A stretch of 64,000 bases of DNA from a virus: positions 8,062-72,061 of the IMG/VR virus record IMGVR_UViG_3300043425_000676; one strand, 5' to 3'. Within the stretch, counting starts at the first letter, position 1, and the number at the start of each line of letters is the position of its first letter. A model generated the notes under the pieces. That model was not told the origin of the DNA, made no database searches, and saw only the letters and a program-made list of their open reading frames with translations. The position numbers and the translations under genes are program-made. This document shows, piece after piece, positions 30,146 through 53,300 of the stretch.

Positions 30146-31516
30146 CTATTCAAACTGAAGCATATCGCTGCTTTTGCCGACTGCCGCATCGATTCGCGCA
30201 CGAGCAAGCTCGATGTATTCGGCTTCGCGTTCAATTCCGACGAACCGAAAACCTTCAAGAATAGCTGCCTTGCCTGTGGATCCTGAGCCGGTGAACGGAT
30301 CGAGAACAAGTCCGTTTGGCGGCGTGACAAGTCGGCAAAGGTAACGCATCAGGTCGGTCGGCTTGACCGTGGGGTGGACGTTCTTGCGATTCGTGACAAA
30401 TCTGCTAGTTACGTCATTTCCTGTATCCCACTCTGCGTTTTCGGGATTGCGCCTGCCGGACATAGACGACGATGCTTTCGAGTTAAAAGCATCCAAGCCT
30501 TCATCTCGGTCTTTCTTGCTTGCCTTCGCGCAATAGAAGAATCTGGCTGCGCTGCCGGAATCGCCTTCATGGAATCTTGGTGTGCCAAGCGTATTTGCCG
30601 CGCTGCCATAGATTTTGTTTTCCGTTCTTGGTTGGCCCGTAAGGCTTCCGCTTGTCGTCTCAGGAAACAACGCCAGCACCTCATCACTTCCATCGTGGAT
30701 GAAGTTTGCAGGGAAACGGCCCAATTGCTCAGCCTTAGCAACCGCTTCATTGCCGCGAGCCTTGCAAGCCTCGATCGCTTCGCTGTCGTGTTTCCAAGGC
30801 CTGTCCCACCCCTCTGTGGTTGTGCTGATCCTGCCGCCGCCTAGCTTGTCCCCGTTCGCCTCCACCCTACACCCATCGATATTCAACCCGCCCGTTCCGT
30901 GGGCTAGCACATTCGCGGCGACTGTTGTGGGAAAAGGCTTACGAGCCAATATGATTGGCTCGTAAGCTGGTTTGAGTGCAGTTCCCCAACCTTGCCATTG
31001 TGTAGCTGCTTCGGTTGTCGGGATTGTTGTGTAAGCGTTCCTGCCGGATTCATCACCCCAAGTGCCACCACCGTCTCGTTTACCATCTTCAAGGCGTAGT
31101 AGGCGATCACCCCCTCGTTTGAGTGGGCCGACCTGCCGTTCCGCCCCAGCGGCCTTGTCAATCGCCTTGCTCACATCCAGCGATTTCGGAAAACCCGAGC
31201 CATATACCCACATGAGGCAGTCTCTAATCTCCCAACCAGCATCCTCAATGGCGCAGGCGAGTCGGTGGTACGTCCTCGTACCACCGAACGCCAGAAGATG
31301 CGCGCCCGGCTTTGCGACCCGCAAAGCCGCTTCCCAAAACGGCATCCCAGGTACGCCGTGATCCCACTGTTTGCCCATAAAGGCCAACCCATAGGGCGGG
31401 TCGGTCACGATTGCGTCAACCGAACAGTCCGCAAAAGTTTTGAGTACGTCTAGGCAATCGCCATGGTGCAATGTGTAGCAATTCATCAAAATGTCCCGTG
31501 TAATTGCGCTACTCAA
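30146..31516 (-). CDS. Beta-class DNA methyltransferase (probably N6-adenine)
   Basis: VTDPPY catalytic motif, HPTVKP, LDPFTGSGSTG SAM motif. Confidence 0.95.
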   Translation of the reverse strand: MSSAITRDILMNCYTLHHGDCLDVLKTFADCSVDAIVTDPPYGLAFMGKQWDHGVPGMPFWEAALRVAKPGAHLLAFGGTRTYHRLACAIEDAGWEIRDCLMWVYGSGFPKSLDVSKAIDKAAGAERQVGPLKRGGDRLLRLEDGKRDGGGTWGDESGRNAYTTIPTTEAATQWQGWGTALKPAYEPIILARKPFPTTVAANVLAHGTGGLNIDGCRVEANGDKLGGGRISTTTEGWDRPWKHDSEAIEACKARGNEAVAKAEQLGRFPANFIHDGSDEVLALFPETTSGSLTGQPRTENKIYGSAANTLGTPRFHEGDSGSAARFFYCAKASKKDRDEGLDAFNSKASSSMSGRRNPENAEWDTGNDVTSRFVTNRKNVHPTVKPTDLMRYLCRLVTPPNGLVLDPFTGSGSTGKAAILEGFRFVGIEREAEYIELARARIDAAVGKSSDMLQFE

Positions 31517-32681
31517 AAAGAACGTTTTGTTTCAATTTATCAGCTTTTTGTACCGCCGAATCAATTCGATCGACAGCCAGCTTGATGTACTCTGGATTCA
31601 ACTCAATGCCGACGTATTTTCTGCCATTCAAGATTGAAACCTCGCCCGTGGTTCCGCTTCCGTTAAACGGATCGAGAATAACACCACCTTTGCGGGAGCC
31701 AGCAAGGACGCAAGGCTCAATTAGCGCAGGAGGAAATGTGGCAAAGTGAGCGCCTTTGTACGGTTTTGTGGTGACAGTCCAAACGGAGCGTTTGTTTCTG
31801 CCTTTTTCTAGGTCTACCGTCATGTCCCCAAAGTCGTTGTCGTAATTATGACCCTGCATACTTTCTTTGCTTCCTCCGCCGTTTTGAGCTCTTTTCCATC
31901 GGTATTTAGCTCGCTCGTGCGTTGCTTTGCTGCATGGCTCTTTGATCGCCTCATTGTCGAAGTAGTACCTTGCCGACTTGCTCAGCAAAAAAACGTACTC
32001 GTGAGATTTGGTACAGCGATCGGTGACGCTTTCAGGCATTGGGTTGGGTTTGTGCCAGATGATGTCTTGGCGTAGATACCAACCATCGGCTTGCAAGGCA
32101 AAAGCAACGCGCCAAGGGATGCCAATGAGGTCTTTGGTTTTTAGCCCAACAGGAGTGCCGATCCGAGGAACGCTATTCTGAGCCTCGGGGTTGTTTGCGC
32201 CAACACCAGGGTTTGTGGATTGCTGGCGATCCGCTTTTGTGCCAGTGGCATAACTATCCCCAAGATTCAGCCACAGCGTCCCGTCGTCTCTAAGCACCCT
32301 CCGGACTTCACGAAACACCGAAACCAATTTAGCTACATAGGCATCCGGTGTCGGCTCTAAACCAATTTGACTATCAACCCTGATAGCACCGCACTTGCCG
32401 CACTTATCCTTGTACGGAATCCACAAAGCGTCTTTGTCCAGTCTGCCCTCAGAAGTTCGACTCCCACCATCGCAAGCGTTTGCAGCCTCAGCAAGATTGC
32501 GCCGTTGACGAATCTCTTTTTCTCGATGATCGCAACCAGGGTCGCCACCCTCCCACTTTGCCGTCCCGTAATCGCGCAAGCCGAAATACGGAGGCGACGT
32601 TACGCAACAATCAACCGCCCCTTGCTCCATCGATCGAAGCACAGACAAACAATCACCGCAATGCAATGTGTAAGGTTTCAT
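31509..32681 (-). CDS. Beta-class DNA methyltransferase (probably N4-cytosine)
   Basis: VTSPPY, IIWHKPNPMPESV.DR, HFATFP, LDPFNGSGTTG. Confidence 0.95.
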   Translation of the reverse strand: MKPYTLHCGDCLSVLRSMEQGAVDCCVTSPPYFGLRDYGTAKWEGGDPGCDHREKEIRQRRNLAEAANACDGGSRTSEGRLDKDALWIPYKDKCGKCGAIRVDSQIGLEPTPDAYVAKLVSVFREVRRVLRDDGTLWLNLGDSYATGTKADRQQSTNPGVGANNPEAQNSVPRIGTPVGLKTKDLIGIPWRVAFALQADGWYLRQDIIWHKPNPMPESVTDRCTKSHEYVFLLSKSARYYFDNEAIKEPCSKATHERAKYRWKRAQNGGGSKESMQGHNYDNDFGDMTVDLEKGRNKRSVWTVTTKPYKGAHFATFPPALIEPCVLAGSRKGGVILDPFNGSGTTGEVSILNGRKYVGIELNPEYIKLAVDRIDSAVQKADKLKQNVLFE

Positions 32682-34109: not shown

Positions 34110-34541
34110 ATGGCGAATTTTGATTCCGATCCGCGTGATTTTGCTCTGGAAATGGTCGAAAACGAGGTAGTTTCGGCAGACCATTTATTGCTTTGCTGCC
34201 TCAAGTACATGAGCGCCGACGAACTTTCACCGCGTTTTGCTTGCGACGAGCCAGACCTTTGCATTGATTGCGGCGGTTCTCACATTGAGGAGGGCACCTG
34301 CCTGGGTTGCCAGCTCGCCGAGTGGCTAGACACCTTCGATGATTCAGAATACGACGTTTCCGCCATGCGTGACGATGTTTCTACCAACAATCTCGAAGTG
34401 GGAGACGATGACGCGGCGGAAAAATACCGCCATGAAAACATCGTTCGCGAGTCGATTGTCAATGGCAACTACACCCAAGCCAAAGAGCAGTGCCAACGCT
34501 TCGGGCTCGACTACGAGGCGATCCTAAGCGAATGCAACTAG
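34110..34541 (+). CDS. Acidic early protein
   Basis: TAGGAGA RBS; D/E-rich with CxxC...CxxC. Confidence 0.75.
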   Translation: MANFDSDPRDFALEMVENEVVSADHLLLCCLKYMSADELSPRFACDEPDLCIDCGGSHIEEGTCLGCQLAEWLDTFDDSEYDVSAMRDDVSTNNLEVGDDDAAEKYRHENIVRESIVNGNYTQAKEQCQRFGLDYEAILSECN

Positions 34542-34588
34542 ACTCGGGGGGGTTAGGCCGAGTGCGGAGGGGTTCGCCCCTCGTCCCC
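34542..34588 (+). ncRNA. Pistol-like ribozyme lacking P1, copy 1
   Basis: ACTCGG-GGGGG-TTAGG-CCGAGT-GCG-[GAGGGG TTCG CCCCTC]-GT-CCCC. Confidence 0.65.
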
Positions 34589-34632
34589 GCTGTCGCGTGA
34601 CAGCAAGCAACAACGAAACAGGAGAAACGACG

Positions 34633-34851
34633 ATGCCAAAGACCATCGACCAAACCAATCCAATCGAGCGCAATATCCGCGAAGCAATCGCCAGGATGAA
34701 GCGATCTAAGACTACTGGCGCCTCCATGGATTGCCTTTTCTTGAACACTCGTACTGCTGGCGTGACCGTGCCGGTCGGCATGTACCGTGCCGAGTTTGAG
34801 AAGCTCGCCCATCGCGTGGCAAGGGATCTGGCGTTCGATCTTTACTGCTAG
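34633..34851 (+). CDS. Small early protein
   Basis: ACAGGAGA RBS, start MPKTID. Confidence 0.7.
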   Translation: MPKTIDQTNPIERNIREAIARMKRSKTTGASMDCLFLNTRTAGVTVPVGMYRAEFEKLAHRVARDLAFDLYC

Positions 34852-34892
34852 CAGGGGTTAGGGCTAGTGCGGCGCCTTCGGGCGCGTCCCCT
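34847..34892 (+). ncRNA. Pistol-like ribozyme lacking P1, copy 2
   Basis: GCTAGC-AGGGG-TTAGG-GCTAGT-GCG-[GCGCC TTCG GGCGC]-GT-CCCCT. Confidence 0.65.
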
Positions 34893-34958
34893 CGTCGACA
34901 CTGTGTCGGCGGATCACCGCAGGCGTGAGACCCTGCCAAGCTTTCAGGAGAATTGACC

Positions 34959-35417
34959 GTGAAGACTGTATTTGAGACAAGATTTGCCAAAGTCGGCGAG
35001 ACAGAGGAACACTACGGCGGAGTACGTTCAGCCCGAGTCGGCGGAGTCGATGACGCGAAGGAATTTGCGAGAAAGCACCTCGTACCGTATTTTGCCGACA
35101 AATGCGATGCAGAGGAATTTTTGATTGTCACCCTAGATACCCAACACCGCCCAATTCGGATTGTCCGCGTTACTCGCGGGACGGTGAACGCAAGCCTAGT
35201 CCACCCCCGAGAAGTGTTCCGTCCAGCTATTGCCGACTGTGCGGCTGCGATGTTTCTGGTTCACAATCACCCATCTGGCGATCCGACCCCTAGTCAAGAA
35301 GATCGAGCGGTTACACGGCGTCTCAAGGACGCTGCCGCGATCATTGGTATATCGATCCTAGATCACCTGATCGTCGGAGACACCATCGTCTCACTGGCTG
35401 AATACGGCTGGTTTTAG
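34959..35417 (+). CDS. radC: RadC-like JAB/MPN domain protein
   Basis: GTVNASLVHPREVF, HNHPSGDPTPSQED, LDHLIVG; CAGGAGA RBS. Confidence 0.92.
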   Translation: MKTVFETRFAKVGETEEHYGGVRSARVGGVDDAKEFARKHLVPYFADKCDAEEFLIVTLDTQHRPIRIVRVTRGTVNASLVHPREVFRPAIADCAAAMFLVHNHPSGDPTPSQEDRAVTRRLKDAAAIIGISILDHLIVGDTIVSLAEYGWF

Positions 35418-35419
35418 TC

Positions 35420-35525
35420 CCTGTTCTCCCGCAAGTCTCGGCACACTTGCGGCAAAGTCTCACGAGTGCCGACGCGGTTGGCCGATGCGATATTCGGCTG
35501 TTTTTTCCACCAACACGAGAACAGG
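35420..35525 (+). promoter_or_regulatory. Structured intergenic RNA with pseudoknot and RBS-sequestering stem
   Basis: CCGCAAGT/ACTTGCGG stem whose loop TCGGCAC pairs with GTGCCGA; CCTGTTCTC pairs with GAGAACAGG over the SD. Confidence 0.55.
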
Positions 35526-35536
35526 AGACTCGAAAA

Positions 35537-36160
35537 ATGCTCAAAGTTACACCAGCAGGCGATAACGCCAAGCTAGGCTCAGGAGTCGGAACAACCTACC
35601 GCCCAGTGGGAATTACATGCCCAAACACCTGCCCGCTATTGGGTAACGGTTGCTACGCCCAACGCGGAAACGTCGCAATCCACGCGGCTAGATCGAAGAA
35701 CGATAATCACGATTTGATGAAGCTCGCGGCAAACACGCTGGTTCGCCACCTAGTCTCGGGCGATTGGCTCAAGGCTACCAAGAACGGGCGCAAGATCCTT
35801 GACCGCGTATTTGTTCGCGCTGTTATCGCCCTACACCAAAAGTGCCCCTGGCTCACGGGATGGGGATACACTCACGCGGCGACCGCATGGCAGGCAGCAG
35901 GCATCACGCCGGCAGACCTGCCCAGTAATTTACACATCCTCGCATCATGCGACACGGCAGAGCAGAAAGCCACCCACAACGCCAACGGATGGAGGACAGC
36001 CCGAGTTATCGACGAACTGGCAGATAGGCAACCCGACGAGTTTGTGTGCCCAGTGGATGCAGCCAAGCGGAAGGGCATTCCAGCGGATCGCAGAACCAAT
36101 TGCGCAAGATGCAAGGCTTGTTTTGCCACCGATCGTAACATTGCTTTTTTGAAGTTTTAA
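35537..36160 (+). CDS. Gp88-like Cys-rich phage protein
   Basis: 'NAKLG', 'TCP..C......CYA..G', 'RHLVSGD', 'WGYTH', 'CP...C.RC..C' pattern. Confidence 0.7.
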   Translation: MLKVTPAGDNAKLGSGVGTTYRPVGITCPNTCPLLGNGCYAQRGNVAIHAARSKNDNHDLMKLAANTLVRHLVSGDWLKATKNGRKILDRVFVRAVIALHQKCPWLTGWGYTHAATAWQAAGITPADLPSNLHILASCDTAEQKATHNANGWRTARVIDELADRQPDEFVCPVDAAKRKGIPADRRTNCARCKACFATDRNIAFLKF

Positions 36161-36177
36161 CCAAGGAGATTCTGACA

Positions 36178-36597
36178 ATGGAAATTAACCTAGAACAAAG
36201 ACTGTACGTCATTCCATCCGGCAAGGGCTACTCGTGCTTGGGGTTTGACGTATGCGAACAGCGCAGAGTGTCTTATATGCAATGGCTTGGACTGCCCGTA
36301 CAACCCGTAGAAATTGGCACGCATCACGCTTATGCGGAATACCAACGCGCCTTGGAACTGGTGCGAATACGGTGTAACTCTCCCGGTGTTAGATGCACAG
36401 TCGAATTGGTACCTGAGTTAGTGCGGTACGAACGTCGTCGAGTCGAGGTTACTTACCCCGATGGCACGAAGACCCGCTTTATTGTTGGGGTGTCGACTGG
36501 ATTTATTCCAGTTCATCTTGAAATCAAGACGCGACGATCTACCGGCGGAAGTCAAGCGTACTTCCCGCCTGGATCAACAGTACGGCTGGTGGGTTAA
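36178..36597 (+). CDS. Early hypothetical protein
   Basis: AAGGAGA RBS; 'RRVEV...RFIVGVSTGFIPVHLEI..RRSTGG'. Confidence 0.8.
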   Translation: MEINLEQRLYVIPSGKGYSCLGFDVCEQRRVSYMQWLGLPVQPVEIGTHHAYAEYQRALELVRIRCNSPGVRCTVELVPELVRYERRRVEVTYPDGTKTRFIVGVSTGFIPVHLEIKTRRSTGGSQAYFPPGSTVRLVG

Positions 36598-36602
36598 AGC
36601 AA

Positions 36603-36661
36603 GACGTTTCGCGCACGAGACCACTGGCTTGCTAGTGGTCGACTGCCTGCAGCGTCGCAGG
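36603..36661 (+). ncRNA. Unassigned pseudoknot RNA motif, copy 1
   Basis: GACGTT pairs with loop AGCGTC of hairpin CTGC/GCAG; GCA-CGAG-[stem]-CGAC-TGC. Confidence 0.6.
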
Positions 36662-36692
36662 GTATTCAAGGCTTTTAATGGAGATTTGTGTT

Positions 36693-36872
36693 ATGAAGGT
36701 GACAATCGAAAACAATGAGTTGGTTATTTGCATACCCGTTGAGAACCCTCCACGACCAAGTGCAAGCGGTAAGACCCTCATCGTAGCCACGAGCAGCGGA
36801 AATCAAACCACGGACGCAATTGTCAATGGTCAATCTGTGGTGGTCGGACTGAACGCATACATTAAGAGGTAA
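36693..36872 (+). CDS. 59-aa early protein, paralog A
   Basis: MKVTIENNELVI.IPVENPPRPSASGKTLIVATSSGN...VGLNAYI; GGAGA RBS. Confidence 0.8.
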   Translation: MKVTIENNELVICIPVENPPRPSASGKTLIVATSSGNQTTDAIVNGQSVVVGLNAYIKR

Positions 36873-36874
36873 GC

Positions 36875-37156
36875 ATGAAATACTTCATTGAGCGAACTAT
36901 TGGTGCTCATTCCGACACACTCGAAAAGCTCTGGGAAGGTAATGATTTACCTTTGTTCAGCCGCAATGGACATCCGTATTGCTTCAGTTGCTACAGAGAA
37001 GCTCAAAGAGTGCTCTGGAGACTTCAAGCACGATACCCCGTAACGATCGATACTCCTAGATCACCATCTGTGCCAATTGATTATTCCTTGGAAAGCATAG
37101 ACACATCGGCAGCTCAAGAGTACAGACCGCAACAACACTTAGGCATGTTTGTTTAA
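36875..37156 (+). CDS. Early hypothetical protein
   Basis: 93 aa, GAGG RBS. Confidence 0.6.
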   Translation: MKYFIERTIGAHSDTLEKLWEGNDLPLFSRNGHPYCFSCYREAQRVLWRLQARYPVTIDTPRSPSVPIDYSLESIDTSAAQEYRPQQHLGMFV

Positions 37157-37213
37157 GACGTTTTGCGCCTGAGGGGGCTCGCCCGAACCCCTAACGGCCT
37201 GCAACGTCGCAGG
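37157..37213 (+). ncRNA. Unassigned pseudoknot RNA motif, copy 2
   Basis: GACGTT pairs with loop AACGTC of hairpin CTGC/GCAG; GCC-TGAG-[stem]-TAAC-GGC. Confidence 0.6.
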
Positions 37214-37240
37214 AACACAACACAACAGGAGAACAGAACG

Positions 37241-37645
37241 ATGGCAGATCGATTTTACGGCACAGTTTATTTGGGTGGGAAGCTAACTCAAGAGCAGTTC
37301 AAGAAGTGCGAGGAATTGCTAGAGGATTGCTTGGAACACGGCGACGAGCTAAACGAGGATGGTTCAGCGTCATTTTCCGAATGCACTAGCAGCGACTTCC
37401 AAGGCATCGTCGAGTATTGCACATCCAACGGTATCGCCTTGTCCTTGCATTGGGACGCCAAGTGGGAACAAGAAGCAAACGTGGAATACTGGATGGACGG
37501 CGAATACAAGCAGTTTTTCGCGGCTGGTGATGGAGACATCGCCATTAGGCTGGCGGAGCTGCAAGAGCACCCCGATATGACCATTGCCGAGTTTATCGCC
37601 AAGATGCAGATTCCCGAGTTCCCAACCTTCGAAATTGCTGACTGA
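37241..37645 (+). CDS. Highly acidic early protein
   Basis: ACAGGAGA RBS, start MADRFY; E/D-rich. Confidence 0.8.
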   Translation: MADRFYGTVYLGGKLTQEQFKKCEELLEDCLEHGDELNEDGSASFSECTSSDFQGIVEYCTSNGIALSLHWDAKWEQEANVEYWMDGEYKQFFAAGDGDIAIRLAELQEHPDMTIAEFIAKMQIPEFPTFEIAD

Positions 37646-37718
37646 TGCGCGTCGGCGACTCGAACGCGAGGGGATTGCCCGATCCCTAAGCGCCCGAGCC
37701 CCTGGCAGTCAGGATCGG
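37640..37718 (+). ncRNA. Unassigned pseudoknot RNA motif, divergent copy 3
   Basis: GACTG complementary to CAGTC in the CCTG/CAGG hairpin; CGC-GAG-[GGGAT/ATCCC]-TAA-GCG. Confidence 0.4.
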
Positions 37719-37745
37719 TAGCATCAAACACAGGAGACATAAGCT

Positions 37746-37964
37746 ATGTATAAGCCTGGAACGTTTGTTCTTGACGGCGTTTCGTATGACCTAGCCTTTA
37801 CGCGCCGACGCTACAGCAACACGACATTCACATGGGTAGCTGTCAAACTCAACGGAGAGTGGGTTGATCTAGGCGATCCATGGCAATGTATTACGCCAAA
37901 AAAGGCTGAGATTGAGGCAGGGTTGAGAATTGTTCTGGCTGCTAATTCAGTAGCCTTGGTTTAG
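37746..37964 (+). CDS. Small early protein
   Basis: ACAGGAGA RBS. Confidence 0.75.
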   Translation: MYKPGTFVLDGVSYDLAFTRRRYSNTTFTWVAVKLNGEWVDLGDPWQCITPKKAEIEAGLRIVLAANSVALV

Positions 37965-37997
37965 TTTTTTTACACTTGCAAACAGGAGATTTGCGCA

Positions 37998-38426
37998 ATG
38001 TCTGAACAGTCCATCACACTGAAAACCGTCACGGCAACGCCGTTTAAGGATTGCAACTCGATGCTTACGCCTCGTCTGCAATTGGTTGTGCGGTACACGA
38101 AAGGCGGAACCAGCATTATGACGGGAGCCGAGTTTGTCCGAGGGTACGAGATCAGTATCCAGTACGACCGTCTTAGCGACGACGGATTTAGGCAGTTCTT
38201 GATTGATGGCAGAGGTAATCCGACCGAAACACTGGAGCAAGCCTCAAGATTCTCCGCCAAAGCGCTCGATAGGCTGGCAGGCGAGATCCGCAGCGGGAAG
38301 CATAACGCAACCATTGCGCACCTTTACGCACTGGCAAGAGCACGAAGACCAGAACACAACTGGCCGGAAGCAATCTTGCCGCTTGAACCCGAGAAGAAGC
38401 CCTGCACGGCTCTGATCGTCGTTTAA
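37998..38426 (+). CDS. Early hypothetical protein
   Basis: ACAGGAGA RBS. Confidence 0.75.
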   Translation: MSEQSITLKTVTATPFKDCNSMLTPRLQLVVRYTKGGTSIMTGAEFVRGYEISIQYDRLSDDGFRQFLIDGRGNPTETLEQASRFSAKALDRLAGEIRSGKHNATIAHLYALARARRPEHNWPEAILPLEPEKKPCTALIVV

Positions 38427-38452
38427 CACGGTAACAACAGGAGACTTTGACG

Positions 38453-38692
38453 ATGAAAATTGCAATTTATTGGAGTCACGTGAGAAATCGCTGGTACGAA
38501 CGCATTGACGGCGTTTCGACACCTTTGCGGCACTCAATCTACTTGCCAACCAATCCAACCTACAAGCAGGTTGAAGACGCTCTGATCGAGCTGGCAAGCT
38601 ACTACGGGGAGGATTTGCAACCGGGAGATGTCGATATCGACTTGTCCGACGATGCGTCGGCAACTTGGGAAAGGACGGTGGTTTGTGCTTAG
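38453..38692 (+). CDS. Early protein with acidic C-terminus
   Basis: ACAGGAGA RBS. Confidence 0.7.
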   Translation: MKIAIYWSHVRNRWYERIDGVSTPLRHSIYLPTNPTYKQVEDALIELASYYGEDLQPGDVDIDLSDDASATWERTVVCA

Positions 38693-38885
38693 TTCGAGCG
38701 ATCTTGAAGGATGGAGAGCAGAAGTAACCAGCACACTCAAAGCGGCTGAGCATTACGCTGAAAAAGCGATGGACGCCAAAGAGTGGGATAACGTTGTCTT
38801 TATGCTTCGCCGAGCGCATGACAAAGCGCTAAGAATCCAAGACAGGTTGGAAATGTCGGCAAAAACTGCCAATGACACCAAATAG
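38685..38885 (+). CDS. Small helical protein
   Basis: GTG start overlapping the upstream stop region, AAGGA upstream. Confidence 0.55.
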   Translation: MLSSSDLEGWRAEVTSTLKAAEHYAEKAMDAKEWDNVVFMLRRAHDKALRIQDRLEMSAKTANDTK

Positions 38886-38912
38886 TTTTTTTATTACAAG
38901 GAGGGAAAGACC

Positions 38913-39059
38913 ATGGCAAAATGGATGCTGCTGATTATCGTTGGCTTGTGCGGTTGTGCAGGTCAACGAACCAGGGTTACATTGACGCGGGTTCACGGTG
39001 AGCCTGCAATTAGTATTGAATTTGAAGACGCAAAGGAGATTTGCAATGCGAATAGGTAG
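38913..39059 (+). CDS. Small lipoprotein (48 aa), not in the ORF track
   Basis: AAGGAGG RBS; MAKWMLLIIVGLCG-C lipobox-like signal. Confidence 0.65.
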   Translation: MAKWMLLIIVGLCGCAGQRTRVTLTRVHGEPAISIEFEDAKEICNANR

Positions 39060-39582
39060 CAGAGTCGCTATTACGCGAATGCGAGAAGATGGCACATGGG
39101 AGAGGTATACGGGTTGCAAGAAAAGACCCGAGGGAACCGTAATCGGTTTGGATATCGACGATTGCGACGGGCACATACGATATGATTTCGCCACAATCCG
39201 CTGGGACGACGGCAGGGTGGAAAGGATTAGGACAGAAGGCGAAGACGAGATCGGAACGTGGGAACTTGAAGATGTCACGCCGGAACTGTACGCCAACTTG
39301 TATCTTTGGGATAAAGCCTACGGAGGATCAGAGGAGGGTGGCTGGTGGTACGACGTTTACACGCCTGCTGATGGTGATTGGAACGATGAACCGCCAAAAC
39401 ACGGCTTGTTCGCTAATTCGACCGAAGCAGAAAACGCCGCCAAGGCATTGCGAGAATGGTGCGACAGCGAAAACCGCTCGCGTCGATCACCGAACTCCAT
39501 GGCATCCGAAGGGCACTTCATTGTTAGGGTGGAAGCTTGGCCAGCAGAGCCTCACCCAACCCACAAGCCCCACTACTGCTAA
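39046..39582 (+). CDS. Acidic early protein
   Basis: AAGGAGA RBS; SH3-like N-terminus and 'YGGSEEGGWWYD' motif. Confidence 0.75.
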   Translation: MRIGSRVAITRMREDGTWERYTGCKKRPEGTVIGLDIDDCDGHIRYDFATIRWDDGRVERIRTEGEDEIGTWELEDVTPELYANLYLWDKAYGGSEEGGWWYDVYTPADGDWNDEPPKHGLFANSTEAENAAKALREWCDSENRSRRSPNSMASEGHFIVRVEAWPAEPHPTHKPHYC

Positions 39583-39639
39583 TTCACGCTGACACGGTGT
39601 CGGCAATGTTTGTTGTTTGTTTTTACAGGAGATTTGATT

Positions 39640-39819
39640 GTGAAAGTTACGATTGAAAACGGCGAATTGGTTATCCGCATTCCCGTGGAAAACCCACCAC
39701 GACTAAGCAGCAGCGGTAAAACGCTAATTGTGGCTACCAGCAGTGGCAATAAAGCAACGGCGGCGACGGTCGACGGCAAGCCCGTTATTGTCGGACTCAA
39801 TGCCTACATCGCAAAGTAG
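39640..39819 (+). CDS. 59-aa early protein, paralog B
   Basis: VKVTIENGELVIRIPVENPPRLSSSGKTLIVATSSGN...VGLNAYI; ACAGGAGA RBS. Confidence 0.8.
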   Translation: MKVTIENGELVIRIPVENPPRLSSSGKTLIVATSSGNKATAATVDGKPVIVGLNAYIAK

Positions 39820-39837
39820 GCACGGTAAAATGATCTC

Positions 39838-39871
39838 AAGCCGTGTGTCAATTGTGGCACGCGGCTTTTTT
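39838..39871 (+). terminator. Intrinsic terminator closing the early small-gene cluster
   Basis: AAGCCGTGTGTCA-ATTG-TGGCACGCGGCTT followed by TTTT. Confidence 0.8.
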
Positions 39872-39894
39872 GGCATCAACACATTAGGGCGACC

Positions 39895-40350
39895 ATGGGA
39901 ACCAAAACGAAAAACGTAATCTATGTCCGCTGGCTCATTCGCAAGGACATGCCCGCAATCAACGAGATAAACATTGAAGCGAGCTACCAACTGCTTGAAG
40001 AAGACATAACGAAGATGCTTCGCACGCGAAACGTAGCTGGCATGGTTGTCGAGCTGGACGGGGTTGTGGCTGGCTACATGATCTACGCACTGGAGAAGGG
40101 CTCGATTGACCTTTACCATCTTGTGGTTGATCCAGTGTTCCACGGGCAAGGCTTGGGCACTGCGCTCATTGAGAAGCTGAAAACCAAGCTAGGTACGCAT
40201 CAAGGCAGAACAGCTATCTACACGACTGTCAGCGAATACGACGTACAATCTCAGGTGTTCTTTCGTTCCGTCAAGTTCTTTTGCGTCGACACTATTCGCG
40301 GCTGGGACGAGAACGGGGACGGATACCTATTTGAGTTTTTGGACATTTAA
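39895..40350 (+). CDS. GNAT acetyltransferase (RimI-like)
   Basis: 'LVVDPVFHGQGLGTALI' acetyl-CoA motif A. Confidence 0.85.
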   Translation: MGTKTKNVIYVRWLIRKDMPAINEINIEASYQLLEEDITKMLRTRNVAGMVVELDGVVAGYMIYALEKGSIDLYHLVVDPVFHGQGLGTALIEKLKTKLGTHQGRTAIYTTVSEYDVQSQVFFRSVKFFCVDTIRGWDENGDGYLFEFLDI

Positions 40351-40395
40351 CAGAGTTTCATTGGTGTTTTTCAATAATTACAGGAGAATCGCATT

Positions 40396-41001
40396 ATGGG
40401 TTGGGTAGTGGATTTTGGCTCTGGCGAACAGGAGATCGGCGGATACGATTTGAAGATACTTGCTGAGAAGGGAAAGATAAATCGCAAGACGAAAGTGTAC
40501 TCAACGACGAAACAAAAGTGGTGCGAAGCTGGCGAGATCGCTGGCTTGGTATTCCATTCGGATAATGAATTTGATTTTGGCGTTCAGCCTGAATTTGAGG
40601 CTCCTCCGGTGATTGAGCCTCCGGTACGGTCATTGGATTGGATGAATACGCAAAAAACCGTCGTAACTAACAAGCCCCCAAAGCGACACAAACCTAGTCG
40701 CAATGTCGGCCTGTTCGACTTCGGTTTCCATCGCATGTTGACACCTGTTTTGTGCGGTTGGGCTTGGGGCGGGTGCTTAGTGTTTTTCACATTTGGTTCA
40801 ATCGCTTTCGTCTTTAGCCGTTGGCGATCGATCGGCGGTGACGCTAGCTCGATTGAAAGGCAAACCGAGCAAATCAACATTGCGATCTTGGCGTTTTCTG
40901 GATGGGTAGTTAGTCTGGTTGCCGCTCGAATCACACTGGAGTGTATTGCAGTGCTTTTCAAGTGCGCTGCGTACCTGAGAGAGTTGTCTGAAAGAGACTA
41001 G
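40396..41001 (+). CDS. Membrane protein with GYF_2-like N-terminus and DUF4282-like C-terminus
   Basis: 'GGYDLKILAEKGKI...TKV....KW..AGEI.GL'; 'LFDFGF.RMLTP' and two TM helices; ACAGGAGA RBS. Confidence 0.65.
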   Translation: MGWVVDFGSGEQEIGGYDLKILAEKGKINRKTKVYSTTKQKWCEAGEIAGLVFHSDNEFDFGVQPEFEAPPVIEPPVRSLDWMNTQKTVVTNKPPKRHKPSRNVGLFDFGFHRMLTPVLCGWAWGGCLVFFTFGSIAFVFSRWRSIGGDASSIERQTEQINIAILAFSGWVVSLVAARITLECIAVLFKCAAYLRELSERD

Positions 41002-41012
41002 GGGACTTAGTA

Positions 41013-41468
41013 ATGTCTAAGGATAAAATTGGCTGGTTCGATTGCATCGAGATAGCTGCGGCGATGACTCCGTTCATTGCGGTGGGTTGTGCGATCTATA
41101 CGATGGCATCCCTGGATCCGATACCCGAACCACCACCGAGGGAACTTCGCGAGTCAATTGACGAGGTTGAGCCACTCGGCGAGAGGTCGTCGGCATGGTC
41201 GAGAGTAAGAGCTGAGTTCGTCGCTGAGCACCCCGACTGCGAAGCCTGCGGGAGTCGCGAGAAGCTAAACGTGCATCATATTCAACCGTTCCATATCCAT
41301 CCCGAACTGGAGTTGGAGCCAAGCAATCTGATCACGCTATGCTTTGAGCACCACTTTAAGATCGGGCATGATCCTGACGGGCCTTGGCGACCTAAGAAGC
41401 CCAAGTGGACTGCTTGGAACCCTGCGGTGAGGCAGCACGCACAGCAGATGCGAGCAAAGGTGCGATAG
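41013..41468 (+). CDS. HNH endonuclease with N-terminal TM helix
   Basis: CEACG...VHHI...NLITLC..HH; hydrophobic N-terminus. Confidence 0.8.
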   Translation: MSKDKIGWFDCIEIAAAMTPFIAVGCAIYTMASLDPIPEPPPRELRESIDEVEPLGERSSAWSRVRAEFVAEHPDCEACGSREKLNVHHIQPFHIHPELELEPSNLITLCFEHHFKIGHDPDGPWRPKKPKWTAWNPAVRQHAQQMRAKVR

Positions 41469-41666
41469 ATGAAACGGTTGATTTGTGGTATGGTGTCCCG
41501 CGCTTTGTTCCTTGTTGGATTTGTCGGCATCGGGTCGGGTTTGTTCCTGATCCTGCATGACCAACGCCTAATTAGGAACCAACCGAGACAAGTGTACTCG
41601 TGGCTACTGATAGTCGGCATTGCTTGCTTTGTCGCTGGTTCGGAAACCAAGGGTATGCAGGAGTAG
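41469..41666 (+). CDS. Small two-TM membrane protein
   Basis: 65 aa with two hydrophobic segments; AAAGG upstream. Confidence 0.55.
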   Translation: MKRLICGMVSRALFLVGFVGIGSGLFLILHDQRLIRNQPRQVYSWLLIVGIACFVAGSETKGMQE

Positions 41667-41736
41667 TTATTGGCAATGGAAGATCGCCAGCAGGTCTGCC
41701 GTTGCTTGTTTCAAGTTGCTGGAGGAGATTTGGACG

Positions 41737-42969
41737 ATGAGTGTGGAAGAACGATTTGAAAGGCTGATGGAAGTTGAGCACCTCGTAAACGCCTTGAGCG
41801 TTTGTGTGGCTAGGCTCAGGAGTGAAGCGCAAAAGCAAGTAGCGGCTATCCGAGAGTCGATTGCTGACGGAGAGCGACGAAAGGCGGCATCTACCTGGGA
41901 CGGCAAGCAGCCCGACTTGTGGCTCAAGAACGGAAGGCTGTGGCGTAAGCCCACCGACGCAGATATCGGAAAGGCGGTGAGGGTTGGGCATTTTGGTGCC
42001 GATCCTGCCGACATGGACGCGGTAAAGCTTGTTGGCTTCCACCAGGAGGCTGGACAGCACGAAGGTTTTATTTGCGAGGGATCCAAAGGTCAGCGGGTGC
42101 TCTGGCCGCTCGCTTGGATCGAGTTTGAGCCTGATGAAGATCCTGGTGAAAGCGGGAAAACGCACATCAGCGTACAGGTTGAAAGAAGCATTCAGGTCGA
42201 CGAGGCTGGCTGGCTGGCTACTGTCTCTGATGATGTCTTCCAAGGGATCGCAAGTGCTTGGTTCGGCACTCAGGAAAAACCATTCGACCCGATCAATGAT
42301 CCAGCCCCGATCTACCGCAAAGGTCAATGTAGGCTGATGTCAGAGGATGAGACCATCGAAGTTGGAGATTTCTTTTGGAGGAGCGTCGACCAATTGCAGA
42401 ATCTTGCCAATTTCACCATCGGAATGAAGGTCAAGGATGCGGTGGCAAGAGGCAGAGGCTACAACGAATTGTGGGTATTCTATCGACCGATCGAAGCGAC
42501 TAAAAGCGATAACTCCAAAGAAACTCCCAGAATTGTTGATGCGTACAAGAAGCTTGTTCAGTCTGACAGCGACTTCGCTTGGACGGTGTTTTGCAATCTT
42601 GCAGTAATGGCTCAGGACGCTGGTGCTCGGCACAAGGAGTCTAACGAACGAGCTGCCGATCTTATGCGCAATTGGTTCGGTGTTGATGTTCGAAAGCTTT
42701 GGCAGTGGAGATTTTTTGAAACTCATGCCACGGACGAACCAAAGCGTTTCGATTCATATTATCGCGAGGCAACATCTTTTGATATCGCCAAAGCGATGGA
42801 TGGAAAAGAAGTCAAGGCTAGGTTTCGCGATTTCGATACTCAGAATTGGATCGAAGGTCGCTGCCTCTACGGATGGAAGCGCAGGAATGATACCGGAAAA
42901 TTCAAGTGGACAGACAGTGAGGGTGTAGCTTGGATGCAATGCCAAGTGTATGATCCGCAAAAAGATTGA
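41737..42969 (+). CDS. Multi-module hypothetical protein
   Basis: GGAGGAG RBS; C-terminal domain paralogous to ORF 25364-25996. Confidence 0.7.
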   Translation: MSVEERFERLMEVEHLVNALSVCVARLRSEAQKQVAAIRESIADGERRKAASTWDGKQPDLWLKNGRLWRKPTDADIGKAVRVGHFGADPADMDAVKLVGFHQEAGQHEGFICEGSKGQRVLWPLAWIEFEPDEDPGESGKTHISVQVERSIQVDEAGWLATVSDDVFQGIASAWFGTQEKPFDPINDPAPIYRKGQCRLMSEDETIEVGDFFWRSVDQLQNLANFTIGMKVKDAVARGRGYNELWVFYRPIEATKSDNSKETPRIVDAYKKLVQSDSDFAWTVFCNLAVMAQDAGARHKESNERAADLMRNWFGVDVRKLWQWRFFETHATDEPKRFDSYYREATSFDIAKAMDGKEVKARFRDFDTQNWIEGRCLYGWKRRNDTGKFKWTDSEGVAWMQCQVYDPQKD

Positions 42970-42996
42970 CTGCTGAGGTAAACTCCCGACCGCCGC

Positions 42997-43032
42997 AACC
43001 GCTGACACTTGTCCTGGTGCCAGCGGTTTTTT
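42997..43032 (+). terminator. Intrinsic terminator at the convergence point
   Basis: AACCGCTGACAC/GTGCCAGCGGTT stem followed by TTTT. Confidence 0.75.
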
Positions 43033-50353: not shown

Positions 50354-53300
50354 TTATTTTTGATTCAATTTTTGCGTAATTTGACGCAATCTTTCGACCA
50401 AAGCGTCCTTCATCACAAGTGCCTGACCCTTGCGCTCGTACAGGGTTTTGTTGTTCCTGCGCCAATATGCCAGCAGTAGCAGCCTTGCCTCTTCTGGCCC
50501 GATCTTGCCGTCGATCATGGTCTTAAGTGCCTTGTCTCTCTCGGCAACAGCTTTGGCGTAGGTCGTATCGTCCTGGAAGTCCTTGCGTTTTGGATTGGCT
50601 GAAGCAGAGTAGACCAGCGATTGTTTGCGTTGCTCTCGGCGTTGCTTGAATCGCTCAAGTTCATCCTTGGTCAAGAAGTCCTTGTAGCCTGGATCCTTCG
50701 AGTCCCATTCCATCGCTTCGAGATCCTTCTCGATCAGCTTTTTGCGTTCCTCTGCGTTGGCGTTCTTGTACTTGGTCTTAGGCCCATAGGTTCCACCACT
50801 CATCCCGAGAATGTTTAGCATGGCGATCGCTGGGCCTTCTGGCACACCACGAGCCATCAGCGTTTCAACGACTTCCCGTCCAGCCAGAGGGATGAACAGT
50901 CCCGTGGTAGCCGTGGCTACCGTTGCTTTGTTGCCAACAACATCTTCTCCAGCAATGATGTTGATGCCAGCGGCGGGGATCGGTGCGAGTTTCTTGCGGA
51001 TAAAGTTGGCTGTCAGATCGAACGTACTATCCTGACCGTACTTCTTCTTCTCTCCCCGAATGTCAATAATTTCGCCTTCCATCGTCTTTTTCTGCCCAAG
51101 TCCAACTTGAGAAAGGAATGTGACGATTTGACCAAAGCCGGACAGTGGATCGATTCGCGTCTCTCCAATCTTGAGTTTCATGAAGTCCGTCGATCGCGGA
51201 TCCAGTTCGACGGTTGGCGATTCCTCATCATCGTCGTCGTACAGCAATCCTCCGAGTGCCACGGCGGTTGCTAAGAATCCGGCAACACCAAGGGCGTGTC
51301 GAGCGTATTCCATGGCGATGAGCCGCTTAACCCTGCCGGAAACCTTGGCATCCTGAAGCATGTAGAACGGCAACCCTAGATATGCGAAGCGAGACGCGAG
51401 GTATCTAGGTGCGAACAAGACGGTGCTGAGGTTTGCCGCGACCTTGTTATAACTCCCGAAGTCCCCTCTACCTGTCGATACGTTGATAAAATTGGCAATC
51501 GCCTTGGCTTCGTCCAGCGTCACCTGACCGTTTGCCCCGAGGGTATCGACGAAATAGGTAAACAGCCGGAACCGCAAGCCGTTGAGGTAGGTCGTGTAAG
51601 CCCTGGCGGACATTGCCACGGGTGTCAAAACCGCCTTGCTGAACTTGTTGATCTTTGTGCCCTTCTTGCCGATGCCGTCCCTTGCCCATCGACCCATGTA
51701 GGCTTCTTCTTGGTTCTGGATCCTGCCAGCACTAGCCGTAACCTCAAGTTTGGCTTGTACCGCAAACGAATAGAGCCGGTGCTTGCTCATCTGTTCGGCG
51801 ATATTAAACTCTTCCTCTTGGCTGAAGATAGCCCGTCGCATTTCCTTTGCAGCCTCTCTGGCAAGCATTGGGTGAGCGAACGTCCCTGGGCCGCCCTGGC
51901 GGAACACCGCCGACAAGTCCATGGATGTCATAATCGCTCTTGCCAGGAATGAAGTCTCCCGAGCCCAGTCGAAGACCCTCTCTTTGGGGCTCAACTGCGA
52001 CAATCGCCATTCTGCCGCCAGGCGGAAGAACTCCTCTTTTATTTCCTCAAGTCGCCTCTTGTGCTTGGTTATCTCGTCGCTTTCGAGTGGGGCTTTCTTG
52101 GGTTTTGCTCCAAAGTAGCCGTGCGCCATGCGATCTTCGTAATCCGCAATCCTGTTTTTCAGGTTGGCGATATAAGCTACCTCTGCTCGCTCTTGAGGGC
52201 TCATCTTGGGGTTCTGTTGTGCCTTAATCGCGTCTCTCTGAGCACGCAACGATTCGAGCTCTGCTTGCTTGGCTTTGAGTTCTGCGCTCGTTACGGGCTC
52301 AGCACGACCTCTAGGGGAGAAATCTCCGGTGCGGAGTTGTTCCGTAACCCTTTCGATCTCCCGATCGGTAGCCCTGAGAGCTGCTGCAAGCCGTTGCTCC
52401 TTGGTCGCTCCCTGCCGAGGAAACATCTCGCGGTAGTCTTTGGTGACTTCCGCTAGGATTCGCTTTTGCTCAGCCAAATCCTTGTCTTTGCTTGCCAAAT
52501 CGACCTGCGTCTTGGTGATCGGCTTGCCTTCAGCCATAGCCTTCCGCAAATCCCTGATGCGGTTTGCCGTTGCCCGCATTGCGGCACCAATTGATGTCTT
52601 CAGGAGTCCCTGTTCATCCTCGGTGTAAAGGTTACTATTGCGCTTCATCTCGTTGACTTGTCGCACTAACGCTCGCTCATCGTCGGACATTTCGCGACGC
52701 TCGACACCCGTTGCCTTGGGTCGAATACCGGCTTCCAAATCCTTGATCTTCGCCATTTGGAGCAACTGACCGTTGATGTCGCGTTGCAATCGCTTGTTTG
52801 CGTCTGGAGAAAGCGGGGTAAATTGCCCATATCCGGTCAGCGCGTCCATTGTCTGCCGCTCGGTGATCTCCGGGTCGATCTCCTGGAGCGATCTCCAGAC
52901 GGCATCTAGGACGACTTCAACGCGATCTTCTTGATCCGCCGTGACGATTCCGCTTTCAATAATCGCCATCTCGATCTCACGGGCGATACGGGTAAGCCCC
53001 TCAACATCCCCAGGGCTGACCATCGGAATCGGGATTTCACCTTGCGCCTTGATCTTCTCCCATGCCGTCGCAAACGCAGCCTGAGCCTGAACAGGCAGTT
53101 CGCCACCTATCTCTTTGCGCAAATTGGCTAGCAGTTCACCGTAGGAGAATACGCCAGCTTCGACGTATGCCATGACGACACTCTCGGCTTCCTCAGCCAT
53201 TCGTTCGTCTTCGGTCTGCATCAGCGTGTCAGAGCCACCCTTGGGCTTGAAGATGCTTGAGAACTTCTTGACGAAGCTCTGTACCGCCGTGGCGGCTTTT

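What the first reader, a model, noticed from the sequence alone, without database searches (positions are those of the whole stretch)
36603..37718. Second repeated pseudoknot motif: candidate new self-cleaving ribozyme or cis-regulator
Seen: copies at 36603 and 37157 share AAGACGTTTYGCGC-M-YGAG-[variable hairpin]-YRAC-KGC-CTGC-ARCGTC-GCAGG, with a compensatory GCA/TGC vs GCC/GGC change, a tandem GA-type internal loop and a 6-bp pseudoknot GACGTT/ARCGTC. A third divergent copy at 37640 keeps GAG/TAA and GACTG/CAGTC. All start at or just after a stop codon, the same position as the pistol-like RNAs. Established: new ribozyme classes were found in the gene contexts of known ones. By eye it does not fit hammerhead, twister, twister-sister, hatchet, HDV or hairpin consensus.
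Basis: partly seen in the sequence, partly recalled or inferred. Interest (0 to 1): 0.85.

Follow-up and report, generated by a model that had tools for sequence, protein, structure and literature searches.

The report
Repeated RNA pseudoknot between phage genes
A folded RNA element of about 60 bases, in which the bases just after a gene's stop codon pair with the loop of a small downstream hairpin, is repeated between the small early genes of this uncultured phage and its relatives; it is in no RNA catalogue searched and its function is untested.

Summary
Copies at 36603-36661 and 37157-37213 share the stated consensus. A divergent third copy lies at 37640-37713.

With covariance models I found 56 hits (46 distinct sequences) in 25 loci from related uncultured viral and metagenome contigs. 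There are 1-5 copies per record, clustered in one operon and always on the gene strand.

Covariation supports four helices:
- a/a' (post-stop strand with the hairpin loop): 4 of 4 core pairs show double changes.
- P2: 3 of 3 pairs.
- P3: 7 of 7 pairs.
- c/c' (the 3' hairpin): U-A 31, C-G 8, U-G 1 at one pair, plus single swaps at two others.

Because a' is the 6-nt loop of c/c', the fold is a hairpin-loop pseudoknot.

Rfam 15 gives no match. The upstream stop codon lies -2 to +7 nt from a in 38 of 42 cases. A G-poor leader and an AGGAG ribosome-binding site follow.

Sub-threshold, P1-less pistol-like RNAs occupy the same post-stop position in 4 of the records examined.

My best reading is a cis-acting mRNA punctuation and insulation element. 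Self-cleavage remains open (about 0.2). Nothing about function was tested.

The scan has noted the same architecture in other phages (e1-5958296, e1-5939520, e1-3410594).

The parts
36595..36597 (+). TAA stop of the upstream gene (36178-36597, phrog_10759), 5 nt before copy 1
36603..36608 (+). copy 1, strand a (GACGTT); pairs with a' at 36651-36656
36609..36612 (+). copy 1, linker TCGC; C13 is kept in 38 of 41 and G14 in 37 of 41 type A copies
36613..36646 (+). copy 1, P2 (GCA/TGC), a 3x3 loop CGA/GAC, and the variable hairpin P3 (36619-36640)
36646..36661 (+). copy 1, 3' hairpin c/c' (CCTGC/GCAGG); its 6-nt loop AGCGTC is a'
36680..36695 (+). GGAG ribosome-binding site and the ATG (36693) of the 59-aa gene that follows copy 1
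   Evidence: the L004 homologue has the same start
37154..37156 (+). TAA stop of the 93-aa gene; it abuts copy 2
37157..37162 (+). copy 2, strand a (GACGTT)
37163..37198 (+). copy 2, linker TTGC, P2 (GCC/GGC), loop TGA/AAC, and hairpin P3 (37173-37192)
37198..37213 (+). copy 2, hairpin c/c' with loop a' (AACGTC)
37227..37243 (+). AGGAG and the ATG (37241) of the 134-aa gene; the leader is CA-rich
37640..37713 (+). copy 3 (divergent). Outer a is GACTG 37640-37644 and overlaps the TGA stop. The inner rod is 37657-37700 (GACTCG/CGAGC, P2 CGC/GCG, GA/AA loop, P3 37670-37687). The hairpin is CCTG-GCAGT-CAGG 37701-37713, and its loop holds CAGTC.
   Evidence: The models matched the inner part, 37652-37708. 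The outer pairing was read by eye only.

Best explanation
This is a real, previously uncatalogued cis-acting RNA element of a lineage of uncultured tailed phages. It is transcribed as part of a polycistronic early mRNA.

The fold: the 6 nt at or just after the upstream stop codon (a) pair with the whole 6-nt loop (a') of a 4-5 bp hairpin (c/c') at the 3' end. A variable hairpin (P2, an internal loop that is usually tandem G.A, and P3) is inserted between them. The helices can stack into one rod of about two helical turns.

Shown here: the helices, the strand, the position and the recurrence.

Inferred: it works as punctuation between gene cassettes. The terminating ribosome must melt a/a'. Once the ribosome leaves, the knot re-forms. 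It then acts as a compact barrier and insulator that fixes or protects the RNA ends of the neighbouring cistrons, and it keeps the G-poor leader and strong ribosome-binding site of the next gene free of upstream context. Each small gene thereby becomes an independently stable and translatable unit.

Whether an RNA cut occurs at the element, by itself or by an enzyme, is open.
For: - Recurrence. There are 26 matches at E<1e-3 in 10 of 10 related virus records scanned whole, 1-5 per record. They cluster within 1-4 kb on one strand. Metagenome contigs add more. The final set is 56 hits, 46 distinct.
- Covariation. 93.8% of cells are paired against 72.0% in shuffles. The covariation score is 0.578 against 0.176 (0 of 500 shuffles reach it). 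Slid controls give 0.04-0.10.
- Variety of helices. There are 20 a/a' combinations, 16 P2 combinations and 11 c/c' combinations. The c/c' hairpin was not part of the search model, yet it shows U-A 31, C-G 8, U-G 1 at one pair.
- Strand. G.U pairs outnumber A.C pairs 32 to 12 on the gene strand in type A copies. Every copy is co-oriented with its flanking ORFs.
- Position. The stop-to-a gap is -2 to +7 in 38 of 42 cases. The distance from c' to the ribosome-binding site is looser, 3-62 nt, and the leader is 17% G.
- Nothing else fits locally. No promoter-like or terminator-like site lies at the motif.
- Not gene-specific. In L189 the 134-aa gene has no motif directly upstream. An extra gene, flanked by repeats of the leader, sits between the motif and that gene.
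Against: - No functional data exist. RNA reads were not available.
- A plain hairpin would suffice as an exonuclease barrier, so the conserved knot, the linker C-G and the loop G-U suggest something more specific.
- Closeness to the stop codon could reflect genome economy alone.
- Nested-only folding gives no consistent picture of ribosome-binding-site exposure: mean unpaired probability is 0.60, and 28 of 45 copies exceed 0.5.
- Five variants lack the internal c/c' hairpin.
- Many copies are close relatives, so cell counts overstate the number of independent events.
- The alignment was fitted to a/a', P2 and P3.
Confidence: 0.4

Rival explanations
1. [quoted passage not shown]
For: - The fold is small and complex, with a pseudoknot, and recurs several times per operon.
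- Some nucleotides are conserved without an obvious pairing reason. Linker C13 is kept in 38 of 41 and G14 in 37 of 41. Loop G75 is kept in 37 of 41 and U81 in 40 of 41, and U81 persists in the 7 copies where its partner is C. Loop G21 is kept in 36 of 41 and A62 in 36 of 41.
- Pistol-like RNAs (20-24 bits, model positions 22-68) sit right after stop codons on the same strand in G000, G001, G006 and G009. Their pseudoknot and P3 covary across the 5 instances that I read by eye.
- The hairpin has a 5-bp stem and a fully paired 6-nt loop. From recall, this is the same size as pistol P1 with its pseudoknot.
Against: - No known ribozyme reaches its Rfam cut-off in the window or in 115 kb of related loci, so the association rests on sub-threshold hits.
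- The internal loop is not universal: 14 variants occur and some copies have none.
- Five type B copies lack the linker and the internal hairpin.
- No cleavage site can be named.
- No cleavage data exist.
Confidence: 0.22
2. It is the recognition site of a protein. One option is a double-strand-specific endoribonuclease of the RNase III type, as at the intercistronic sites of T7 early mRNA. Other options are a phage-encoded endoribonuclease or a translational repressor.
For: - The stacked helices (P3 7-9 bp, P2 3 bp, c/c' 4-5 bp, a/a' 4-6 bp) add up to about two helical turns interrupted by an internal loop.
- Passages read in PMC1540722 say that RNase III needs about two turns. They say coaxially stacked short helices can supply this. 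They also say that internal loops limit cutting to one strand and leave a protective 3' hairpin.
- The position between early cistrons and the 3-5 copies per operon resemble T7 (recalled, not from a call).
- The c/c' stem is conserved in sequence: two pairs are invariant in 41 of 41 copies.
Against: - A simple long hairpin would serve RNase III. The loop sequence a' varies and covaries with a, so it is read by RNA and not by protein.
- No candidate partner protein was identified.
- The host is unknown.
Confidence: 0.2
3. It is a translation-coupled switch. The ribosome terminating on the upstream gene opens a/a', and this changes initiation on the next gene (coupling or uncoupling).
For: - Strand a lies -2 to +7 nt from the stop in 38 of 42 cases. 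By established knowledge of ribosome dimensions, this is inside the footprint of a terminating ribosome.
- CCUG of strand c is complementary to CAGG of the CAGGAG ribosome-binding sites. In some copies the nested fold pairs the ribosome-binding site, for example unpaired probability 0.31 for copy 2.
Against: - Sequestration of the ribosome-binding site is not consistent: 28 of 45 copies have unpaired probability above 0.5.
- The distance to the ribosome-binding site varies from 3 to 62 nt.
- Recoding is unlikely. In 10 of 42 copies an in-frame stop lies inside the motif, and by eye I saw no shared slippery site in the few upstream sequences I read; this was not scanned systematically.
Confidence: 0.1
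4. It is a DNA-level element: a recombination linker, a miniature mobile element, or a hairpin promoter.
For: - Motif plus leader modules flank genes that differ between relatives. In L189 a gene sits between two copies of a 21-nt leader repeat.
- Three homologous type B copies are flanked by the direct repeat TAGCACC.
Against: - Orientation is locked to the genes.
- G.U exceeds A.C by 32 to 12 on the sense strand.
- Covariation between a distant strand and a hairpin loop is not expected for a duplex DNA site.
- Type A copies have no flanking repeats above shuffled expectation.
- No promoter-like site is present.
- The giant ORF is DarB-like and not a virion RNA polymerase, so an N4-type hairpin promoter has no polymerase to use it.
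Confidence: 0.05

Closest known systems
Pistol self-cleaving ribozyme (Rfam RF02679)
   Same: Both are small. Both have a hairpin with a roughly 5-bp stem whose 6-nt loop is fully used in a pseudoknot (the pistol dimensions are recalled). Both have a second P2-loop-P3 rod. Both occur in phages, and pistol-like RNAs share the operon and the post-stop position.
   Different: The motif gives no hit to the model. The loop's partner strand lies 5' of P2 and outside it, not in the P2-P3 junction. There is no UUAGG junction and no G-U step 3' of P3. The knot-forming hairpin is at the 3' end, not the 5' end.
Intercistronic RNase III processing sites of T7 early mRNA (such as R1.1)
   Same: Both are about 60-nt irregular helices with an internal loop. 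Both lie between early cistrons, after the stop and before the next ribosome-binding site, with several copies per operon. The T7 layout is recalled. The substrate rules come from passages of PMC1540722.
   Different: Here a pseudoknot, not a single hairpin, supplies the lower helix. The linker and loop nucleotides are conserved. No cleavage is known.
Recoding pseudoknots (-1 frameshift and stop read-through stimulators) and exonuclease-resistant viral pseudoknots (xrRNA, coremin)
   Same: All are compact pseudoknots placed next to a stop codon or at the edge of a 3' region, where they can act as mechanical roadblocks. For the xrRNA and coremin literature I saw only the listing and abstracts.
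   Different: There is no conserved in-frame extension, and I noticed no shared slippery site in the few copies read by eye. The polarity and topology differ from xrRNAs. The setting is a bacterial host.
Candidate structured RNAs from IMG/VR intergenic regions (PMC10690425)
   Same: The source collection and the kind of evidence are the same. That study reports 8495 candidate RNAs of median length 65 nt, found by covariation (passages read).
   Different: I could not check whether this motif is among them, because the supplements are closed. The main text passages I read name no such element and assign no function.

Membership tests
Pistol ribozyme (RF02679) | Score at or above the Rfam gathering cut-off (34.5 bits) | tested here: not met
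   No Pistol hit overlaps any motif copy at E<=10 or at E<=5 in 8 loci. The hits that do occur are separate elements scoring 20-24 bits.
Pistol ribozyme (RF02679) | The loop of the P1 hairpin pairs with the junction between P2 and P3 | tested here: not met
   The loop of c/c' pairs with strand a, which lies 5' of the linker and of P2. The topology is different.
Pistol ribozyme (RF02679) | Site-specific self-cleavage at a G-U step | not testable with these tools
Hammerhead, twister, twister-sister, hatchet, HDV-like and hairpin ribozymes (Rfam models) | Match to the family covariance model | tested here: not met
   Searches give no hit at the motif. The 5' flank of P3 does not read CUGANGA (the core sequence is recalled).
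Hairpin-type (H-type) RNA pseudoknot | Hairpin loop bases pair with a strand outside the hairpin, and both helices are supported | tested here: met
   For a/a', 4 of 4 core pairs show double changes. For c/c', the counts are U-A 31, C-G 8, U-G 1, plus single swaps at two more pairs. Whether both helices form at the same time was not tested.
Recoding signal (-1 frameshift or read-through) | A slippery site or a conserved open frame beyond the stop | tested here: not met
   The frame after the stop closes inside the motif in 10 of 42 copies, and extension lengths range from 0 to 182 codons. Slippery sites were only looked for by eye in a few copies, not scanned.
Intrinsic terminator | A G+C-rich hairpin followed by a U run | tested here: not met
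   No terminator-like site lies at 36600-37720. CA-rich sequence follows c'.
RNase III processing site | About two turns of helix, possibly stacked, with an internal loop, and cleavage by RNase III | tested here: inconclusive
   The helix lengths are compatible (rules). Cleavage is not testable here.
N4-type DNA hairpin promoter | A phage virion RNA polymerase and a hairpin with a 3-nt loop (recalled) | tested here: not met
   The giant ORF is DarB-like, phrog_10089. The loop here is 6 nt.
Miniature mobile element or integron-like cassette site | Target-site duplications, and either orientation possible | tested here: not met
   Type A copies have no flanking repeats beyond shuffled expectation. 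All copies are on the gene strand.

The most novel reading that the evidence does not exclude
The motif is a new class of self-cleaving ribozyme. Together with P1-less pistol variants in the same operons, it cuts phage early polycistronic mRNAs at stop codons. More broadly, it may be one family of a widespread, unrecognised class of stop-codon-anchored pseudoknots that punctuate phage messages.
Probability: 0.2. Interest if true: 0.85.

Novelty: new variant of a known kind. Interest (0 to 1): 0.6.

Why it matters
Structured RNAs between phage genes control how long each message lasts and how much protein it yields. The few understood examples (RNase III sites, small ribozymes) became tools for insulating genes in synthetic operons.

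This element has unusually clear covariation for a pseudoknot. It is tied to the stop codon and shares its operons with pistol-like RNAs. It is therefore a well-defined, cheap-to-test candidate for either a new ribozyme class or a new kind of mRNA boundary element.

It also marks the seams at which these phages exchange small, probably anti-defence, gene cassettes.

Tried and rejected
- Rfam. Gathering on the window and on 20 related loci gave 0 hits. The E-value mode gave only a Rubella_3 hit at E 7 on the minus strand and unrelated weak hits.
- First model. R1, built from 5 close copies, could not place copy 3 (E 0.39). The broader model R2 did.
- Pattern scans. Most loci fetched by pattern were chance matches. 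In the 120 viral loci L004-L123 (the 15-mer scan gave 119 stretches) the model hit only 8 loci from 7 contigs. Of 75 new loci from the second pattern, 3 held copies plus 2 borderline. Of 110 metagenome and genome loci, 13 held copies. The hits at 20-27 bits in L229, L232, L236, L241, L262, L279, L283, L310, L331, L335 and L336 lack P2 and P3. I dropped them as artefacts of the pattern.
- Upstream protein. The search for related loci with it found no relative.
- Alternative pairing. Linker G14-C15 with G-C of strand c (the plain-rod reading) is rejected. Column 15 varies (C 28, G 6, A 4, U 3) while its partner never does.
- Read-through or frameshift. Rejected.
- Consistent hiding of the ribosome-binding site. 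Not seen; that folding ignores the knot.
- Target-site duplications. Not seen for type A copies.
- N4-type hairpin promoter. Dropped.
- Cultured relatives. None in GenBank phages, by portal protein or by DNA. The host is unknown. One 9-kb contig that carries 2 copies is binned in a Crocinitomicaceae MAG; I take that as no evidence of host.
- Literature. Searches found no description of this motif. For PMC10690425 and PMC1540722 I read passages. For all other papers I saw only listings and abstracts. The supplements of PMC10690425, which may list the motif, are closed.

Full report
**What is there**

The window is bases 8062-72061 of a 72,061-base IMG/VR virus record rated complete. The finding lies in a plus-strand operon of small genes (about 34110-43000). 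That operon includes a RadC-like JAB protein, a DUF7227 protein and a phrog_10759 protein.

Elsewhere the window has an SU10-type portal, a terminase-like ORF, two DNA methylases and a 4504-aa DarB-like antirestriction ORF. GenBank phages hold no relative.

They are the only exact occurrences of its two conserved blocks. Copy 3 (37640-37713) is divergent.

**Is it more than two similar spacers?**

Two pattern scans of viral contigs and one each of metagenome and genome contigs fetched several hundred loci. Most were chance matches. I filtered them with covariance models.

- Model R1 was built from 5 close copies. It found untrained copies at 25-75 bits in 9 further viral contigs.
- Model R2 was built from 23 sequences. 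Run over 10 related virus records in full, it hit all 10. It gave 26 matches at E<1e-3, 1-5 per record, always within 1-4 kb and on one strand.
- R2 also placed copy 3 in the family (22.5 bits, E 8e-4).
- With metagenome contigs, the final clean set is 56 hits, of which 46 are distinct. Of these, 41 have the full layout ('type A'). Five lack the linker and the internal 3' hairpin ('type B', which includes the inner part of copy 3).

**The fold**

Counted on the 46 distinct sequences, 93.8% of cells form standard pairs, against 72.0% after shuffling. The covariation score is 0.578 against 0.176 (0 of 500 shuffles reach it). Versions with the partner slid by 1-3 columns score 0.04-0.10.

| Helix | Pairs with changes on both sides |
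|---|---|
| a/a' core | 4 of 4 |
| P2 | 3 of 3 |
| P3 | 7 of 7 |

There are 20 different a/a' combinations. Examples are GACGUU/AACGUC, AACGUC/GACGUU, AACGUU/AACGUU, GACAGA/ACUGUC and GACGGC/GCCUUU.

The c/c' hairpin was not in the search model, so its signal is independent of the alignment procedure. One pair reads U-A 31, C-G 8, U-G 1, other 1. One copy swaps C-G to A-U at the next pair. The outermost pair shows G-C once and U-A once. Two pairs never vary.

Because a' is the entire loop of c/c', the supported structure is a hairpin-loop pseudoknot. An alternative would turn the whole element into a plain rod by pairing linker G-C with G-C of strand c. It is not supported, because the linker position varies while its partner does not.

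Three caveats apply. Many copies are close relatives. The alignment was fitted to a/a', P2 and P3. Co-existence of the two helices is inferred, not shown.

**RNA or DNA?**

- All copies are co-oriented with the flanking ORFs.
- In type A copies, G.U pairs outnumber A.C pairs 32 to 12 on the gene strand.
- No promoter-like or terminator-like site coincides with the motif.

I conclude that the structure is selected in the transcript.

**Position**

An ORF of at least 40 codons ends within 30 nt upstream in 42 of 46 copies. The gap from stop to a is -2 to +7 nt in 38 of these 42. The type B copies account for the gaps of 11-13 nt.

Downstream, a G-poor leader (17% G) leads to an AGGAG-type ribosome-binding site 3-62 nt after c', most often 11-20 nt.

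The element is therefore anchored more tightly to the upstream stop than to the next start. A ribosome sitting on that stop would cover strand a and so melt the knot. This follows from established ribosome dimensions and is an inference.

**What it is not**

- Any Rfam family.
- A recoding signal: the frame after the stop closes inside the motif in 10 of 42 copies.
- A terminator.
- An N4-type promoter: the giant ORF is DarB-like, not a virion RNA polymerase.
- A transposon-like insert: type A copies have no flanking duplications.

**Context that bears on function**

The only Rfam family that recurs near the motif is Pistol, and always below its cut-off. Hits score 20-24 bits against 34.5 and cover model positions 22-68 only. 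They occur in G000, G001, G006 (two) and G009, on the same strand and again right after stop codons.

I read five instances by eye. They keep GGGG-UUAGG...UGCG...GU-CCCC. Their pseudoknot varies in step (CUCGG/CCGAG, CUAGC/GCUAG, CUCGA/UCGAG, CUAGG/CCUAG), and so does their P3. They look like pistol RNAs without the P1 stem.

This makes a processing role for the neighbouring pseudoknot motif more plausible. The link remains guilt by association with unproven ribozymes.

Comparison with the closest relative, L189, shows that the 134-aa gene can do without a motif directly upstream. There, an extra gene flanked by two copies of the 21-nt leader lies between the motif and that gene. So the element is a generic cassette-boundary module and not a gene-specific regulator. 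The conserved leaders serve as seams for cassette gain and loss.

**Verdict**

The structure is real, and it is new to Rfam and to the literature I could search. It may be one of the 8495 unnamed candidates of PMC10690425, whose supplements I could not open.

| Reading | Confidence |
|---|---|
| mRNA punctuation and insulation element whose knot re-forms behind the terminating ribosome | 0.4 |
| New self-cleaving ribozyme | 0.22 |
| Protein or RNase III-type recognition site | 0.2 |
| Termination-coupled translational switch | 0.1 |
| DNA-level element | 0.05 |

Earlier notes of this scan describe the same architecture in unrelated phages. I did not test those. They suggest the kind is widespread.

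Noticed in passing
window 34544-34592 and 34849-34900; also L209 1819-1858, L218 472-513, L224 339-381: This is a family of pistol-like RNAs without a P1 stem. It keeps GGGG-UUAGG...UGCG...GU-CCCC. It has a covarying 5-bp pseudoknot whose 5' strand often includes the stop codon. Rfam Pistol scores are 20-24 bits against a cut-off of 34.5.
   Followed up: partly
window 36693-36872 and 39642-39819: Two paralogous 59-aa genes (MKVTIEN... and VKVTIEN...). The first follows the pseudoknot motif and the second follows a terminator-like hairpin. Homologues follow the motif in L004 and L222.
   Followed up: no
window 50354-63868 (-): A 4504-aa ORF that matches DarB-like antirestriction proteins (phrog_10089, 1312 bits), with methyltransferase and helicase parts.
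   Followed up: partly
window 30146-32681 (-): Two adjacent N6/N4 DNA methylase genes (PF01555).
   Followed up: no
window 37157-37240: The 93-aa gene and the 134-aa gene are in the same frame, with no stop between the TAA and the ATG. Read-through would fuse them. This is not conserved in other copies.
   Followed up: yes
L189 4520-5531 (-) against window 37090-37770: The closest relative carries an extra gene of about 105 codons, flanked by two copies of the 21-nt leader ACAGGAGAACAGAACGATGGC. This shows cassette gain or loss by recombination between leaders.
   Followed up: partly
L215 1501-1558, L240 3904-3961, L333 7285-7342: Type B copies are flanked by the 7-nt direct repeat TAGCACC. 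In 10-14 of 200 shuffles a repeat this long arises by chance. The three copies are homologous, so this is a single event.
   Followed up: partly
L333 (genome contigs): A 9-kb contig with two motif copies is binned in a Crocinitomicaceae MAG. It is probably a phage contig in the bin, so it gives no host evidence.
   Followed up: no
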